DNA of 64,000 nt from Alistipes sp. (GTDB lineage Bacteria > Bacteroidota > Bacteroidia > Bacteroidales > Rikenellaceae), in contig JAZRHV010000024.1 in assembly GCA_045644925.1 (NCBI GenBank), positions 10,472 through 74,471 of the forward strand, read 5' to 3'. The translations under genes and the position numbers were made by a program. The notes beneath the pieces are model-generated. The model saw only the letters and a program-made list of their open reading frames with translations, was not told where the DNA came from and did no database searches. Below, one piece after another: positions 11,372 through 30,163 of the stretch (position 1 is its first letter; each line of letters opens with the position of its first letter).

Positions 11372-12499
11372 ATGCTGAAAAGATTGTCGATACTGATTTT
11401 GTTCACATTCTTGGCTCTGCAATTTGCACAGGGTCAGGATGTTGCGCCCGCGCCTGCGTGTGAGAGCGCGTGTAGCGAGCAATCGGGAGCACTCTTTTTC
11501 GATGGCGAACTTTCAACCCACTTCGACAACGCAGAGTATGACGGCAACGATGTCGGCTACTCGCGAACTATTTTTGCCGTAAGATTGATCCCTGCCCTCG
11601 GCTACCGTTGGGGTAAGGATGGTTGCCACGCTGTGGTGGCAGGTGCCGAGCTTTTGAAAGATTTTGGCTCGGTGCGAACTATCGACGATGCAAAGTTGGT
11701 GGCATACTACCGCTATAAGGACCAAAATTGGGGTGCGTATGCCGGAATCTTCGGTCGAGATGAGTTGGTGGGTCGCTACTCGCGAGCATTCTATTCGGAT
11801 TCGACTCGTATTTACAATGCTTTGGTGCAGGGTGTGGCCGGTCACTACCGCTCGGAGAAGATGTTTGCTGAGTTGGCGGTCGATTGGCATGGCCTCTACT
11901 CGCCTGAGGTGCGCGAGAAGTTCCGCGTCCTGACTTCGGTGGGAGGTAAGTTCGCGAAGTGGTTTGATGCGGGCGTGACGTTGTCGCTTACGCACTACGC
12001 CAATAAATCGACTTTCCGCGGAAACGTGGTTGATAATGCGCTGGGTAACGCCTGGATTGGTGCGCAATTCAAGGCCTTCTTTGACTTTGATGTTAGATTG
12101 GGCTATCTGCAAGCTCTGCAACGCGACCGCAAGGTCTCCGACAGCTGGCTTGCTCCGAAGGGTGGCGAACTCTATGTTAGGCTGTCGAAGTGGGGTGCGT
12201 TTATTGACAATAACCTCTATGTTGGCGAGAATTTGATGCCGCTCTACGAGGTGTGCGGAAACGACGGTTTGAACTATGCGGATGACCTATATGCTGGCGA
12301 CATAACGTATTCCCCCCCCCGAAAATTTTGTAATAGGACGGGATTAGGATATGAACGCACGTTTTGTAAAGAGAGCCTCTCGGTCAAGGCCGAGGTGGCA
12401 CTGATATATATGGGCGGCAAGGTGTCAAACCAGCAACTTGTGGGCATATCGGCTCGATTTGCTCCGACAATTTACGATAAATCGAAACACAAAAAATAG
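11372..12499 (+). CDS. hypothetical outer-membrane (beta-barrel-like) protein
   Basis: Signal peptide and alternating aromatic/Gly strands; no family recognised. Contains a C9 tract at 12312-12320. Confidence 0.6.
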
Positions 12500-24493: not shown

Positions 24494-24630
24494 AATTACA
24501 TTTGCGAGGCTCCTTACCCCGATTTTGTGCGAAGGAGAATCGAATGGCGGTGGGTTTATGGCTCTGTAAGCACCGAAATATCCGTCAAATTCTGTCCCGT
24601 CCTCCGCAGGTTACAAAATAAATAATGCAA

Positions 24631-24838
24631 AGGCAGGTCTTCTGACTTGTTCCGATTGCGACGCCTTCCCATCCTTACAGCGGACAGTGGCACAAGATTG
24701 TCGCAATTCGTGGGGAAAATCCCCAATGAATATGGCTTTGGGCCTATTCATAGAACTTACAGCAGCGGGAACTGTAACCGACTCTCACGGTTTTCCCTTT
24801 TAATTCCATAGGACGCAAGTCCCTTCGGAAACCAATGC
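24631..24838 (-). ncRNA. cobalamin riboswitch
   Basis: Minus strand reads ...AAAAGGGAAAACCGTGAGAGTCGGTTACAGTTCCCGCTGCTGTAAG...ACTG...GGGAAGGCG...AAGTCAGAAGACCTGCC (B12 box). -7 box TACCTTTG at 24844-24851. Confidence 0.9.
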
Positions 24839-24980
24839 TAACGCAAAGGTATCAAATAATTTGCGATTAACAATACAATGTTAGATATTTTTTTATAACT
24901 TTGCCAGCCTGGGCTATATACTAAGGTATATAGCTCCTATAAATGCCCATTCTGGGCTTAGGTTAGTTAGGAAAATAAAT

Positions 24981-26203
24981 ATGCGAAATTTTCGTAAGTT
25001 GCTGATTATCTTGCTTTTAGCAAGTAGGGGGGGTATTCTCGGGAGTGCCGTACGGAATTTCGTATGGAGTTTCGCGTAAATAATACGACAATCGAGTCGG
25101 AGCGTGGAGACAATGGCGAGCAACTCCGCAAACTCAACGCTTTCCTCGATCAAATCGAAGCCGACACGACTAAAAATATCGTAAATGTTGCCTTCTGTGG
25201 TGCGGCATCTCCCGAAGGAAATACGGAAAATAATCGCCTGTTGGCGCAAGGCCGACTGTCGGCACTCGAACGAGTTGTTCGTGCTAAAATCGAACTACCC
25301 GACAGTATCGTAACCTATAATGATAGTTATATCCCGTGGAGTTATCTCGCTGAGAGAGTCGAAGAGTCTGATCTTCTGCAAAAGGAGGTTATTCTGGGCA
25401 TCATCGGTCGTGAGCCTGTCGTGATAGGCTATATAAACAATCAACTTTTCGATAATCGTGTCGAACTGCTCAAAACACTCGATGATGGGGCGGTGTGGCG
25501 ACAACTCAACGAACGCTATTTCGCGTCTATGCGCAACGCTAGCGTAATTTTTACCACATCCCAATCATCGGTTAAGCCATCCGAAGAGTCTTTGGTTGCG
25601 GATGTTGTCGAGATGCATAAAGCTGAAACTCCGGAGAGGCCAGAGTCGGTAGCGACAGCAGAGGTCGCTGATGATTGGACTCGTCATCTATATCTGAATA
25701 CGAATGCTCTCGGTTGGGCATTGGCTATATTGAATATTGGGGTCGAAATCGACCTGGCAAAGCATTGGTCTTTTGCTATGCCGATATATTATGCGGCGCA
25801 CAACTACTTTGTGCCGACCATTAAATTCCGCACCCTCGCTATCGAGCCGGAGGTGAGATATTGGCTCAAAGAGAATAATATAGGCCTCTTCTTTGGTGCG
25901 CATTTAGGCGTGGCCCAATACAACCTAGCAGTAAATGGCGCAAATCGCTATCAGGACCACAATGGTACATCACCTATGCTGGGCGGTGGAGTTAGCATCG
26001 GTTATCGTTGCGCTATATCGAAGAGTCGTCGTTGGAACGCCGAATTTATTTTAGGTTCGGGCGTTTATAATCTGCATTACGATATTTTTCACAATGATAC
26101 CAACGGAAAATTTATTGATACGCAGCGAAAAACCTATTTTGGAATTGACAACGCTGCTGTCAATATTTCGTACCGTTTTGACTTGAAGCGAGGTAGGCGA
26201 TGA
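24981..26203 (+). CDS. DUF3575/OmpA-like outer-membrane protein heading a fimbrial locus; frameshifted at G7 (25027-25033)
   Basis: Signal-peptide frame from ATG 24981 stops at 25079. The main frame opens exactly at the G tract (in-track ORF 25064-26203). ASPEG and NTNALGW..NIGVE..WS..P..YA...YF..LA.EPEVRYW barrel motifs. Confidence 0.75.
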
Positions 26204-27219
26204 GGATGATGTTGCGCTATATATTTGCGAGTGTGGCATTACTGATGTCGCTTGTGGGTTGTGATATTCACGAATTTCCGATGCAGACACAAAGTGTAGT
26301 CCCGTTTGTGTTGCATCTCAATTTCGACACAAATCTGCCTCTGCACAAGGTGGTGCCGTATGTGCGAAGCGAGTCGAACGATGCAGTGAATGGTGGCGAG
26401 GGTTGTGATGTGCGATACTTGATTAAAGCCTATCGAGCCAATAATGTGGCGGGCGATAACGCTGTTGCCGATGCGACGGTTGTGGTTACTAAGTCCGATA
26501 TCGACAACCTTAATCACTCGGTGAGTATCGAGTTGGAAGAGGGTCAATATACCTTCCGCATTTGGTGCGATTATGTGAAGAGGGGTAGTCGTGACGATAA
26601 CTACTACCTGACGAGCGATTTTGGGGAGATAATCCTTGCAAATCGGGCAGAGCATCAGGGTAGTAACGAATATCGTGACGCTTTTCGCGGAGTTGCGACG
26701 GCAACAGTGTCGGAGACGAGCCGTCAGGCAACTGTCGAGATGCAGCGACCGATGGGTAAGTTCGAATTTATCTCGACCGATATGTCGGAATTTGCAGCTC
26801 GGGTCAAGGCGGATAAAGGAGTGCAAGAGATTGATTGGAACGCATATAGGGTAGTATTTTGTTATGAAATATTTATGCCCTGCTCGTATAACTTGCTAAG
26901 TGATAAGACGGCAGATTCGTGGCAAAAAGTCTACTTCGAGAGTCGTATGACTACCGATGGAGAGGCAGAGGGAGAGATATCGCTGGGATTTGATTATGCC
27001 TTTGTGGACTATCCGAAAACCACGCTGAGCATATCGGTTGCGGTATACGAGCCGAGCGGAGGGTGTGTGGTGATGTCGAAGCCAATAGATGTGCAGATTG
27101 TAAGAGGTGAACTGACAGTGGTTAAGGGCGATTTCTTGACATCGAAGGGCGCGAGTAGCTCGGATGGGGTAGCGATAAACCCAGGTTACGAAGGCGAGGA
27201 TTACAATGTGGAGATTTAG
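26200..27219 (+). CDS. type V fimbria minor/anchor-like lipoprotein (Mfa2/FimB- or DUF6562-like)
   Basis: Lipobox LVGC-DIHEFP, RDAFRG, MQRPMGK, TVVKGDFLT; ATGA overlap with the upstream gene. Confidence 0.6.
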   Translation: MRMMLRYIFASVALLMSLVGCDIHEFPMQTQSVVPFVLHLNFDTNLPLHKVVPYVRSESNDAVNGGEGCDVRYLIKAYRANNVAGDNAVADATVVVTKSDIDNLNHSVSIELEEGQYTFRIWCDYVKRGSRDDNYYLTSDFGEIILANRAEHQGSNEYRDAFRGVATATVSETSRQATVEMQRPMGKFEFISTDMSEFAARVKADKGVQEIDWNAYRVVFCYEIFMPCSYNLLSDKTADSWQKVYFESRMTTDGEAEGEISLGFDYAFVDYPKTTLSISVAVYEPSGGCVVMSKPIDVQIVRGELTVVKGDFLTSKGASSSDGVAINPGYEGEDYNVEI

Positions 27220-27261: not shown

Positions 27262-29253
27262 ATGATGAAAAAACTTTTCTTTTTGATGAGCGCAATGATG
27301 GTTGTCTTTGCCTCGTCGTGTGAGAGCGGATTTGATGGAAAAGAGTCTGCTGGAAAGGCATTGGTTTCGTGCAATGTAGAGATGCCGAAAATCGCAAGCC
27401 GTGCATATAGCGACGGTATGTCTGCAAATGTATTGCAGTATGCTGTTTATGACGCTGCGGGCAACGAGCTGACCGACTTGACCGTAACCGATGGCGAAAT
27501 CTATGGCTCGACTGCTGTTAATTTCGAGCTCGTTGTAGGTCAGACCTACTCGGTAATCTTCTGGGCTGCTGCCGAGGGTGCTCCCTATGCAGTAAACTTC
27601 GCGGACAAGAGTATGACCGTAGATTACACCAATGTAAAGTGTAATGCAGAGGGTTATGATGCCTTCTACAAGTGCGTCGAGTTCGTCGTTACAGGCTCAA
27701 TGTCGATGGATGTAGAGTTGCGTCGTCCTTTTGCTCAGCTCAACATCGGTACGAGCGACTACGTTGCAGCGGCAAAGGCTGGCTACGTTCCTACAAAGTC
27801 GTGGGTAAAGGTTCCGGTCTACACAACTCTTAACTTGCAGGATGGCTCGGTTTCGGGTCAGAGTGCTCAGGAGTTTGGCTTTGCCGAGATTAACAAGGGC
27901 GAGACTTTCCCCGTTGCCGGCTATGACTACCTCGCAATGAACTATTTGTTGGTTTCGGCTGATAAGGAGGTTGTCGAGGTTGAGTTTGCATATACAGCGA
28001 CCGATGAGAGCGCTGCCGTATCGCGTGTCGTAGGCTCGGTGCCTGTGCAGCGTAACCACCGTACCAATATCTATGGTAAACTCTTTACCACGACTGTTGA
28101 TGTGCAAGTCGTAATCGTGCCGGATTATGACGACGAGGATCTCAATAAGGAGGTTGTTGATGCCGTAGAGATTGCTCCCGGCGTATTGTACAATGAGGCT
28201 AGTGCAACATATATGCTCACTAATAAGCAGGGTATTGAGTGGTTGAGAGATGAGGTAAACAACGGCAATACATTTGAGGGTAAAATCGTAACATTGACCG
28301 ACGATATCGATGTAGGTATTGAATACGACGATAATGGCGAGCGCATCTCTTTCGCTACTATCGGAACTTGTAGCAAGAGCGTGAAGAAGCCTTTTAAGGG
28401 TACTTTTGACGGTGATGGTCACTCTATTAAGAATATCTATCAGAATGGTTGGGATTTCGGCTATGAGTATGGCTCTTGGGGATCTGTCGGTTTGTTTGGT
28501 AAACTCGAAGATGCAACCGTTAAGAATGTAACCCTCGAAGGCTTCGAATTGCGTATTGAGGGTGGTAATGTCGGCGGTATCACCGGTAATGCCGCAGGTC
28601 ACTGCGTATTCGAGAATATTACCGTGAAGAACTCGACATTCTGCTCTTACAACAATGGCGTTGCAGGTATTCTCGGTTGGCCCGAGGCTGGTAACTACCT
28701 CTTCAAGAATATCAAGATTGAGAGCGATGTAACTATCGCTGCATTCTGGGGCACCTATGACGCATCTCTTGCGGGTGTTATGGCAGAGGCATACACCGAT
28801 GGTACCTATCATTTCGAGGATATCGAGATTAGCTGCCGACTCGACGCTTTCAACGATGTTATCTCGAACTACAAGTGGTACAACTATCGCCTTAGCGGTA
28901 TGCTCGTAGGTAATGTTGAGACTACAACTACTACCGCAGAGGGTCGCATAATTCCAGACCCCGCATGTTGCAACATCACTTGCAAGAATGTGGTTGTGAA
29001 CTATGGCGACTGGATGAACTATCACTACTGCGTGCCTAACAGCAACAACCAGGGCAACTATCGTGTAGAGCCGGGCTATTCGTATGGCGGTATTCCGGCA
29101 GACCACGATCACACAACTTGCCAGAATGGCGAATGCTGCAATCAACTTCTTCCATTCGACCAGCTCTTTGGTGGTGGTAAGGGTGTTGTGGGTCTTGCAA
29201 CATACGATGGCGTAACTGTAAACTACCCCGCGTCGTACACTCAGGGTAACTAA
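27262..29253 (+). CDS. type V fimbrial-like lipoprotein (DUF6562-like N-terminus, large GLUG-like C-terminal domain)
   Basis: Lipobox FASSC, LRRPFAQLNIGT, VPVQRNHRTNIYGKL, then FKGTFDGDGH.I.N, GLFG.L..ATV.N and VGGITG repeats. Confidence 0.65.
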   Translation: MMKKLFFLMSAMMVVFASSCESGFDGKESAGKALVSCNVEMPKIASRAYSDGMSANVLQYAVYDAAGNELTDLTVTDGEIYGSTAVNFELVVGQTYSVIFWAAAEGAPYAVNFADKSMTVDYTNVKCNAEGYDAFYKCVEFVVTGSMSMDVELRRPFAQLNIGTSDYVAAAKAGYVPTKSWVKVPVYTTLNLQDGSVSGQSAQEFGFAEINKGETFPVAGYDYLAMNYLLVSADKEVVEVEFAYTATDESAAVSRVVGSVPVQRNHRTNIYGKLFTTTVDVQVVIVPDYDDEDLNKEVVDAVEIAPGVLYNEASATYMLTNKQGIEWLRDEVNNGNTFEGKIVTLTDDIDVGIEYDDNGERISFATIGTCSKSVKKPFKGTFDGDGHSIKNIYQNGWDFGYEYGSWGSVGLFGKLEDATVKNVTLEGFELRIEGGNVGGITGNAAGHCVFENITVKNSTFCSYNNGVAGILGWPEAGNYLFKNIKIESDVTIAAFWGTYDASLAGVMAEAYTDGTYHFEDIEISCRLDAFNDVISNYKWYNYRLSGMLVGNVETTTTTAEGRIIPDPACCNITCKNVVVNYGDWMNYHYCVPNSNNQGNYRVEPGYSYGGIPADHDHTTCQNGECCNQLLPFDQLFGGGKGVVGLATYDGVTVNYPASYTQGN

Positions 29254-29966: not shown

Positions 29967-30163
29967 CCCCCCCCCAAAAAAAACATTGGGGAGCTTGAAC
30001 TGCGCAGCAGTCGCACGGATACTAAATAAAAAAAGAAGACAACCTTTCGATTGTCTTCTTCAGTACCCCCTCAGGGGCTGTCCAATGACGAAAATCGTGC
30101 GCGTACAGCGCGTATTTCAACGATGTAGGTTCAACACTTTTGTCGCATTTTGTCGCAATGGGT

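What the first reader, a model, noticed from the sequence alone, without database searches (positions are those of the whole stretch)
24981..25079. G7 homopolymer frameshift switches off the first gene of a fimbrial operon
Seen: ATG 24981 gives a signal peptide (MRNFRKLLIILLLAS) that runs out of frame and stops at 25077-25079. The main frame opens right after TAG 25025-25027, at G7 (25027-25033). G8 or G5 fuses them into ...LLLASRGGYSRECRTEFRMEFRVN..., resembling the N-terminus I recall for this family (RTEICVDFRVN). The next gene is coupled by an ATGA overlap. Inference: a contingency locus controlling pilus display by slipped-strand mispairing, currently OFF; the alternative is a homopolymer sequencing error.
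Basis: partly seen in the sequence, partly recalled or inferred. Interest (0 to 1): 0.65.

Follow-up and report, generated by a model that had tools for sequence, protein, structure and literature searches.

The report
Poly-G on/off switch heading pilus operon
A run of seven G's separates the export signal from the body of the first gene of a pilus-like operon in an uncultured gut Bacteroidales bacterium. The run is 7, 8 or 9 G's long in closely related strains, so it is most likely a slippage on/off switch, a type I found no report of in this bacterial order in the papers I could search.

Summary
ATG 24981 opens a signal peptide that crosses G7 (25027-25033) and stops at 25077-25079. The 391-codon main frame opens right after TAG 25025-27.

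- **Missing signal peptide.** Full-length homologues (410-420 aa) carry exactly this signal peptide. A natural G8 allele in the sister species reads straight through and aligns without gaps.
- **Tract length varies.** Seven haplotypes of two species carry G7 (4), G9 (2) and G8 (1), with identical bases immediately flanking the run.
- **Not an old pseudogene.** dN/dS between the species is 0.14 at dS 0.93, the same as intact neighbours.
- **Gene products.** The first gene models as an OmpA-like domain plus a small outer-membrane barrel (DUF3575). The next gene has a type V pilin fold.
- **Genome context.** The genome holds 44 G/C runs of 7 or more, where about 3 are expected. Three others sit in signal peptides of surface proteins. 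The excess is genus-wide.

The slipped-strand switch, OFF here, is supported. Recoding at G7 is a minor rival. The mechanism is classical, but I found no report of it in this order.

The parts
24896..24903 (+). Bacteroidetes-type -7 promoter box TAACTTTG of the operon
   Evidence: Matches TAnnTTTG, a consensus recalled from my own knowledge. It is identical in the sister species while the surrounding bases differ. Function is inferred. The sigma-70 scan found nothing, as expected for this phylum.
24911..24957 (+). 5'UTR with two hairpins (24911-24936 and 24945-24957)
   Evidence: RNA fold -24.5 kcal/mol, z -2.3. The first stem GGGCTATATAC/GTATATAGCTC is replaced by CGCATA/TATGCG in the sister species. 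Its role is unknown.
24981..25026 (+). Start codon and signal-peptide codons (MRNFRKLLIILLLAS + first two bases of the Arg codon AGG)
   Evidence: It aligns with the signal peptides of 410-420 aa homologues. Only 2 of 46 nt differ from the sister species.
25027..25033 (+). G7 homopolymer, the switch; G8 (also G5 or G11) is in frame
   Evidence: The length is G7, G8 or G9 in related contigs with identical bases immediately flanking the run.
24981..25079 (+). Abortive 32-codon reading frame produced by the G7 allele (stop 25077-25079)
25028..26203 (+). Body of the head gene: OmpA-like periplasmic domain plus DUF3575 small outer-membrane barrel. Databases call it from the internal ATG 25064 as 379 aa with no signal peptide.
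   Evidence: Pfam DUF3575 1.2e-35. AlphaFold model pLDDT 77.5. Foldseek hits to OmpA-like peptidoglycan-binding domains and to the NspA, OmpW and OmpX barrels. dN/dS 0.136.
26200..27219 (+). Gene 2: DUF6562 lipoprotein with a type V pilin (Mfa2/FimB-like) fold; ATGA overlap with the head gene
   Evidence: Pfam DUF6562 4.4e-70. Invariant lipobox Cys21. Some homologues also hit PF08842 Mfa2. Model pLDDT 82. Foldseek hits BT2657, DUF1812, Mfa2 5nfi, Mfa3 and Mfa4 at E 1e-10 to 1e-5.
27262..29253 (+). Gene 3: 663-aa protein with a DUF6562-like region; candidate stalk or tip subunit
   Evidence: Pfam DUF6562 2.6e-09. Same gene order in the sister species. dN/dS 0.149.

Best explanation
The G run in the signal-peptide-coding end of the head gene is a slipped-strand (homopolymer) phase switch.

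**ON state.** With G8 the ribosome reads from ATG 24981 through Arg-Gly-Gly into the mature protein. That protein is an exported two-domain outer-membrane protein: an N-terminal OmpA-like domain and a C-terminal DUF3575 barrel.

**OFF state.** With G7 (this assembly) or G9, translation stops after 32 or 33 codons. The only start left in the main frame is ATG 25064, which is GTG in the sister species. A protein made from there has no signal peptide, so the barrel cannot reach the outer membrane.

**Shown here.** The anatomy, the tract-length polymorphism, a natural ON allele, long-term purifying selection, the pilin fold of gene 2, and a genome-wide and genus-wide excess of G/C runs.

**Inferred.** Changes arise by replication slippage and are reversible. 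The OFF state also lowers the two pilin-like genes, through loss of the ATGA translational coupling and through polarity over about 1.1 kb of untranslated mRNA. The phenotype would be presence or absence of a type V pilus-like surface structure.
For: 1. **Frame anatomy**.
2. **Homologues.** They are 410-420 aa and begin with a signal peptide such as MRIYKVCILLILLLFASGTAYSQENRTEIRVDFRVN. The window's two frames join onto this without a gap at G8.
3. **Natural G8 allele.** The sister species allele (L015) reads MRNLRKLLIILLLASRGGYSQECRTEFRVEFRVN... It aligns gap-free across the junction with P0006 (57% identity, E 4e-34). The rest of that operon lies on another scaffold from the same sample.
4. 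**Tract census.** The window is G7. A second contig of the same species, 0.4% diverged, is G9. The five sister-species haplotypes are G7, G7, G7, G9 and G8. The bases immediately flanking the run are identical.
5. **Reproducibility.** Contigs identical over their overlap, from up to three assembly sources, give the same length.
6. **Selection.** dN/dS is 0.136 at dS 0.93 for the body. Genes 2 and 3 give 0.176 and 0.149, and an intact neighbour gives 0.118. The 11 codons between the tract and the internal start are conserved in the main frame.
7. **Lineage-specific tract.** No G/C run longer than 4 occurs in the signal-peptide DNA of the 27 other homologues for which a signal-peptide start could be extracted.
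8. **Genome context.** G/C runs number 627, 45, 7, 13, 23, 1 for lengths 5 to 10. Three other runs lie in signal peptides of surface proteins, all in frame at G9: two BACON lipoproteins and a SusC-like receptor.
9. **Genus-wide excess.** G8 words number 6-294 per genome in the genus, against mostly 0-15 in other families of the order. A complete same-genus genome shows the same length profile.
10. **An exported protein.** The head gene models as an OmpA-like domain plus an 8-stranded-type barrel, which needs a signal peptide.
Against:
- **Variation follows haplotypes.** The differing haplotypes are 0.4-1.3% apart. The one haplotype seen in several samples (L008/9/12/13/14) is always G7. Fast switching is therefore not demonstrated.
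- **Six of seven haplotypes are OFF, and G7 dominates in both species.** This could mean selection for OFF, or some expression from G7 by recoding.
- **One study.** All sister-species contigs appear to come from one study, so the samples are not fully independent.
- **Mismatch repair is present.** MutS and MutL are both found. The hypermutability cannot be ascribed to loss of repair as in Campylobacter.
- **Not all runs are gene switches.** About a dozen of the genome's G runs belong to a terminator/T-run/G-run/9-mer-array arrangement.
Confidence: 0.75

Rival explanations
1. Programmed recoding. G7 is the working allele, and the full-length protein is made from it by a -1 ribosomal frameshift on G GGG GGU, or by RNA polymerase slippage that adds one G to the mRNA. 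The DNA-level length changes would be secondary.
For: G7 is the commonest state in both species (4 of 7 haplotypes) even though the gene is under purifying selection. The zero-frame codons AG-G GGG GGU formally fit an X XXY YYZ heptamer, and a -1 slip gives exactly the G8 protein (read from the sequence).
Against: There is no significant or conserved structure 5-9 nt downstream of the run (z -1.1 in the window, +0.36 in the sister species). The tract is not fixed, since G8 and G9 alleles exist. G9 alleles would need a different shift. No RNA data could be consulted.
Confidence: 0.1
2. Assembly or sequencing error in this genome. The true consensus here is G8, the gene is simply ON, and the finding is an artefact of homopolymer miscalling.
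For: The genome is a 27-contig metagenome-assembled genome and its reads could not be inspected. G/C run lengths in this genome and in a same-genus complete genome stop sharply at 9, which might hint at a technical ceiling.
Against: G7 is also the length in four other haplotypes of the sister species. Identical contigs from megahit-style, scaffolded and Logan assemblies give the same length, while other samples give G8 or G9. Even if this one call were wrong, the locus would still be length-variable.
Confidence: 0.08
3. Plain pseudogene. A homopolymer indel has permanently inactivated the head gene, and the operon is decaying.
For: Six of seven haplotypes are out of frame. Public annotation calls only a truncated 379/380-aa product.
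Against: The 391-codon body has no stop or other indel in either species. dN/dS is 0.136 at dS 0.93, the same as intact neighbours. The signal-peptide codons upstream are even better conserved (2 of 46 nt). An in-frame G8 allele exists. The downstream genes are intact and constrained.
Confidence: 0.05

Closest known systems
Neisseria gonorrhoeae/meningitidis pilC (poly-G tract in the signal-peptide-coding region; Jonsson et al. 1991, cited from my own knowledge; phasome overview PMC5953494)
   Same: A G homopolymer inside the signal-peptide codons of a pilus-associated gene. Length changes of plus or minus 1 put the mature protein in or out of frame. The organism has working mismatch repair and many such tracts.
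   Different: Different pilus type (type IV against type V-like) and an unrelated protein (tip adhesin against an OmpA-like/barrel outer-membrane protein). The phylum differs too. Switching rates are measured for pilC and not here.
Campylobacter jejuni poly-G/C phasome (PMC8355987, PMC8437040)
   Same: A small genome with tens of G/C runs of 8-10, far above expectation and with a mode near G9. The runs sit in 5' coding regions and intergenic regions of surface-structure genes.
   Different: C. jejuni lacks MutS/MutL-type repair (my own knowledge), whereas this genome has both. Its targets are mostly glycan-modifying enzymes. Here they are a pilus-operon head gene, BACON lipoproteins and a SusC-like receptor, and many runs belong to a terminator-associated intergenic arrangement.
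Invertase-driven phase variation in Bacteroidales (invertible promoters of capsule, SusC/SusD and fimbrial loci; reviewed in PMC11868660)
   Same: The same ecological logic: stochastic ON/OFF of surface structures in gut Bacteroidales.
   Different: The mechanism differs. No inverted repeats flank the promoter here and no recombinase lies next to the operon. The switch is a homopolymer inside the coding sequence. The review mentions no simple-sequence-repeat switch in Bacteroides.
Type V pili of Bacteroidales (FimA/Mfa family; Mfa2 anchor PDB 5nfi, BT2657 PDB 4qdg)
   Same: Gene 2 is a lipoprotein with the two-domain type V pilin fold. Some of its homologues also hit Pfam Mfa2.
   Different: The sequence family is DUF6562, not the FimA or Mfa1 families. 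The operon is headed by an OmpA-like/DUF3575 barrel whose role in pilus biogenesis is unknown. Polymerisation has not been shown.

Membership tests
Simple-sequence-repeat contingency locus (translational phase variation by slipped-strand mispairing) | Homopolymer or short repeat inside the 5' coding region | tested here: met
   G7 at 25027-25033, codons 16-18 of the signal peptide.
Simple-sequence-repeat contingency locus (translational phase variation by slipped-strand mispairing) | A change of repeat number moves the full ORF in and out of frame | tested here: met
   G7 and G9 stop after 32 or 33 codons. The natural G8 allele (L015) reads through into the body.
Simple-sequence-repeat contingency locus (translational phase variation by slipped-strand mispairing) | Repeat number is polymorphic among otherwise near-identical sequences | tested here: met
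   Seven haplotypes 0.4-1.3% apart carry G7 x4, G9 x2 and G8 x1. The bases immediately flanking the run are identical.
Simple-sequence-repeat contingency locus (translational phase variation by slipped-strand mispairing) | High-frequency, reversible switching within a clonal population | not testable with these tools
The one haplotype seen in several samples is always G7.
Simple-sequence-repeat contingency locus (translational phase variation by slipped-strand mispairing) | The gene is otherwise maintained by selection (not a decaying pseudogene) | tested here: met
   dN/dS 0.136 at dS 0.93 against the sister species, equal to intact neighbours.
Type V (FimA/Mfa) pilus operon | Lipoprotein subunits with the two-domain type V pilin fold | tested here: met
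   Gene 2 has an invariant lipobox Cys. Its model has pLDDT 82. Foldseek hits 4qdg, 3gf8, 5nfi (Mfa2), 5nf4 (Mfa3) and 5dhm (Mfa4), E 4.5e-10 to 1.8e-5.
Type V (FimA/Mfa) pilus operon | Stalk subunit with an Arg/Lys cleavage site and a C-terminal donor strand, polymerising into a filament | not tested
   Gene 3 was not modelled. R72 of gene 2 is invariant, but cleavage and polymerisation cannot be tested here.
DUF3575 (PF12099) outer-membrane barrel family | Score above Pfam's gathering threshold | tested here: met
   122.8 bits against a cut-off of 21.1, residues 220-384. The barrel fold resembles NspA, OmpW and OmpX.
OmpA-like peptidoglycan-binding domain | Sequence-family match and peptidoglycan-binding fold | tested here: inconclusive
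   There is no Pfam OmpA hit. The N-terminal half of the model matches OmpA-like domains (3td5, 5u1h, 4rha, 1r1m, 6top) with target TM 0.6-0.66 and E about 1e-3. Binding residues were not checked.
Programmed -1 ribosomal frameshift site | Slippery heptamer plus a conserved stimulatory structure 5-9 nt downstream, with fixed sequence | tested here: not met
   The heptamer G GGG GGU is present. No significant or conserved downstream structure was found, and the tract length is not fixed.

The most novel reading that the evidence does not exclude
This locus may be one element of a genus-wide poly-G 'phasome' in an abundant gut Bacteroidales genus.

On this reading, tens to more than a hundred G8-G9 runs per genome sit in signal peptides of surface proteins and in promoter-like spacers. 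The affected proteins include a pilus-operon head gene, BACON lipoproteins and SusC-like receptors.

Together these runs would form a second phase-variation system, independent of invertases, that has gone unnoticed because gene callers silently restart OFF alleles at internal start codons. The conserved OFF length G7 in two species could further mean that low-level recoding supplements the DNA switch.
Probability: 0.45. Interest if true: 0.75.

Novelty: new member of a known kind. Interest (0 to 1): 0.55.

Why it matters
Phase variation in gut Bacteroidales is currently explained almost entirely by invertible DNA (review PMC11868660). Eight full-text searches, six of them aimed at this question, found no report of homopolymer switches in Alistipes or Bacteroidales.

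If these G runs are real switches, three things follow.

- Surface display of pili, lipoproteins and nutrient receptors in a major commensal genus varies by a mechanism that inverton-finding tools miss.
- Strain-level metagenomics treats the changes as noise, and annotation hides them by calling truncated genes.
- The locus links a DUF3575/OmpA-like barrel to a type V pilus-like operon. No outer-membrane component is established for such operons, and the switch offers a natural ON/OFF pair for testing the barrel's role.

Tried and rejected
- **Reads.** No tract-length distribution or RNA evidence was obtained.
- **Metagenome pattern scan.** A scan for the flanks with a variable gap returned only the one contig already known.
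- **Gene 2 lookups.** Fetching contigs through gene 2, to avoid bias towards OFF alleles, returned no new contig that spans the tract.
- **Relatives at DNA level.** A DNA search of 40 relatives found no orthologous stretch. Genus-level protein homologues are all intact, 413-464 aa open frames.
- **Inverton hypothesis.** No inverted repeats flank the promoter, so I rejected it.
- **RNA elements.** Rfam finds only the cobalamin riboswitch of the divergent operon on the minus strand. The sigma-70 scan was empty.
- **-1 frameshift stimulator.** No significant or conserved structure lies downstream.
- **Other databases.** NCBIfam found nothing for the three operon genes beyond one far-sub-threshold hit for gene 3. 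Sequence searches of the PDB found nothing.
- **5'UTR alifold.** Two sequences were too few to be informative.
- **L015 'truncation'.** I first read it as a deletion of the operon in the only ON strain. I rejected that because the rest of the operon lies on another scaffold of the same sample.

Full report
**Observation.**
- ATG 24981 starts MRNFRKLLIILLLAS. The reading runs through G7 (25027-25033) and stops at 25077-25079 after 32 codons.
- A second frame opens directly after TAG 25025-27 and stays open for 391 codons, to TGA 26201-26203.
- The next ORF starts at 26200, giving the ATGA overlap.
- Public gene calls start the head gene at the internal ATG 25064, as a 379-aa product with no signal peptide.

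**What the genes are.**
- *Head gene.* The main frame hits Pfam DUF3575 in residues 220-384 (1.2e-35). An AlphaFold model built on 39 homologues has pLDDT 77.5 and shows two halves. The N-terminal half matches OmpA-like peptidoglycan-binding domains (3td5, 5u1h, 4rha, 1r1m and PorE 6top; target TM 0.6-0.66). The C-terminal half matches small outer-membrane barrels (NspA, OmpW, OmpX, CarO). Such a protein has to be exported.
- *Gene 2* (26200-27219). It is a DUF6562 lipoprotein (4.4e-70) with an invariant lipobox Cys. Some homologues also hit Pfam Mfa2. Its model (pLDDT 82) matches the Bacteroidales type V pilin structures BT2657, DUF1812, Mfa2, Mfa3 and Mfa4 at E 4.5e-10 to 1.8e-5.
- *Gene 3* (27262-29253). 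It carries a weaker DUF6562 match.
- 'Fimbrial operon' is therefore justified at fold level, although filament assembly is untested. The divergent upstream operon is governed by a cobalamin riboswitch on the minus strand.

**The frame break is real relative to the family.**
- About 450 homologues were found, and the listed ones are mostly 405-425 aa. Those I read begin with a signal peptide followed by (S/A)QE.RTEI.VDFRVN.
- The window's signal peptide and body join onto this pattern without a gap when the run is G8.
- Nature provides that allele. In the sister species (77-78% protein identity) contig L015 has G8 and reads MRNLRKLLIILLLASRGGYSQECRTEFRVEFRVN... It aligns gap-free across the junction with a full-length homologue (E 4e-34).
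- L015 breaks near the 3' end of the gene. The rest of the operon lies on another scaffold of the same sample (L119), so this is an assembly break and not a deletion.

**The tract varies.**
- In the window's species the window has G7. A second contig, 0.4% diverged (L004), has G9.
- In the sister species five haplotypes, 0.5-1.3% apart, carry G7 (L001-3), G7 (L007), G7 (L008/9/12/13/14), G9 (L010/11) and G8 (L015). The bases immediately flanking the run are identical.
- Contigs that are identical over their overlap, from up to three assembly sources, give the same length. This argues against an assembler artefact.
- Two caveats apply. The contigs seem to come from one study. The variation tracks haplotypes, and the one haplotype seen in several samples is always G7. 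Strain-level polymorphism is therefore shown, but rapid within-clone switching is not.
- Lookups through gene 2, which do not depend on the state of the tract, found no further contig that covers it.

**It is not an old pseudogene.**
- Against the sister species the body has dN/dS 0.136 at dS 0.93.
- Genes 2 and 3 give 0.176 and 0.149, and an intact neighbour gives 0.118.
- The signal-peptide codons differ at only 2 of 46 nt. The 11 codons between the tract and the internal start are conserved in the main frame. The internal 'start' is GTG (Val) in the sister species.
- Both species are mostly caught in an OFF length. Long-term constraint therefore requires that OFF be transient (reversible) or bypassed.

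**The tract is lineage-specific, and the genome is rich in such runs.**
- In the 27 other homologues for which a signal-peptide start could be extracted, none has a G/C run longer than 4 in that DNA.
- In this 1.87-Mb genome G/C runs number 4677, 627, 45, 7, 13, 23, 1 for lengths 4 to 10. That is a second peak of 44 runs where about 3 are expected.
- Three other runs lie in signal peptides and are in frame at G9: two BACON-domain lipoproteins and a SusC-like TonB-dependent receptor.
- Several others sit in promoter-like positions, for example between TTTG and TATATTTG at C5:13301.
- About a dozen belong to a recurrent intergenic arrangement of terminator hairpin, T run, G run and an array of 7-9-mers. 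Not every run is a gene switch.
- The excess is genus-wide: 6-294 G8 words per genome in the genus, against mostly 0-15 in other families of the order. The first 400 kb of a complete same-genus genome shows the same profile (5, 5, 17, 0 for lengths 7 to 10).
- MutS and MutL are both present.

**Mechanism.**
- The best reading is a classical slipped-strand translational switch, with G8 ON and G7 or G9 OFF. It sits in the c-region of the signal peptide and encodes Arg-Gly-Gly.
- In the OFF state the barrel protein is either not made or made without its export signal.
- Loss of the ATGA coupling, and polarity over about 1.1 kb of untranslated mRNA, should also lower the two pilin-like genes. This step is inferred.
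- No inverted repeats flank the promoter, so an inverton is unlikely.

**Rivals.**
- *Recoding at G7.* G GGG GGU formally fits a -1 slippery heptamer and would give the G8 protein. However, no significant or conserved downstream structure was found and the tract is not fixed.
- *An error in this assembly.* It cannot be excluded without reads. It would not change the nature of the locus.
- *A plain pseudogene.* The selection data and the G8 allele contradict it.

**Comparison and novelty.**
- The closest analogue in design is Neisseria pilC, which has a poly-G tract in the signal-peptide codons of a pilus-associated gene. The closest analogue in genome-wide pattern is the Campylobacter jejuni poly-G phasome (PMC8355987, PMC8437040).
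- The 2025 review of phase variation lists only invertase-type switches for Bacteroides (PMC11868660). Searches for homopolymer or simple-sequence-repeat switching in Alistipes or Bacteroidales found nothing.
- Earlier notes of this scan report similar poly-G switches in other Alistipes and gut Bacteroidales genomes, one of them in a DUF3575 head gene of a pilus operon. They agree with this reading but are not independent evidence.
- I file the locus as a new member of a known kind of switch, in an order where I found no report of that kind.

Noticed in passing
window 29967-29975 (C9, preceded on the minus strand by T8), window 12312-12320 (C9); genome C24:158, C12:1969, C13:1445, C19:47423/47470, C17:10149/10285, C10:171839, C10:211861, C23:79030, C6:62502: About a dozen G/C runs sit in a recurrent intergenic arrangement: a terminator-like hairpin, a T8-10 run, a G8-9 run, then an array of 7-9-mers (GGGTTAGAT, GGGGAGATT and TTAGGGAG types). 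A complete same-genus genome has G9 followed by A12-13 just after stop codons. The function is unknown.
   Followed up: partly
whole genome and G004 first 400 kb: G/C run lengths peak at 9 and stop there: 7, 13, 23, 1 for lengths 7-10 in this genome, and 5, 5, 17, 0 in the complete genome. A/T runs reach 10-13. I could not tell whether this sharp ceiling is mutational equilibrium, selection or a technical limit.
   Followed up: no
window 24911-24957: The 5'UTR of the pilus-like operon folds into two hairpins (z -2.3). The first stem is replaced by a different self-complementary sequence in the sister species, which looks compensatory.
   Followed up: partly
genome C20:9536, C25:22629, C27:7940: Three other poly-G runs (G9, in frame) lie inside signal peptides: two BACON-domain lipoproteins (342 and 679 codons) and a 1046-aa SusC-like TonB-dependent receptor. 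They are candidate further switches.
   Followed up: partly
genome C5:13301: A G9 run lies between TTTG and TATATTTG, about 66 nt upstream of the ATG of a 996-codon ORF. It is placed like a promoter-spacer homopolymer.
   Followed up: no
genome C2:1003 and C5:1249: Two G8-9 runs share a flank motif (ATAAGGGTAT.GAAT.CCCCTCC.CGA ... G run ... TATT), each about 1 kb from a contig end. They may be the ends of a repeated or mobile element.
   Followed up: no
window 24981-24990 and 25056-25065: A 10-nt inverted repeat (ATGCGAAATT / AATTTCGTAT) could pair the true start-codon region with the internal ATG region, enclosing the G run. It may be chance.
   Followed up: no
window 24615-24851, minus strand: A cobalamin riboswitch (82 bits) heads the divergent DUF4465 lipoprotein operon, directly upstream of the pilus-operon promoter.
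   Followed up: no
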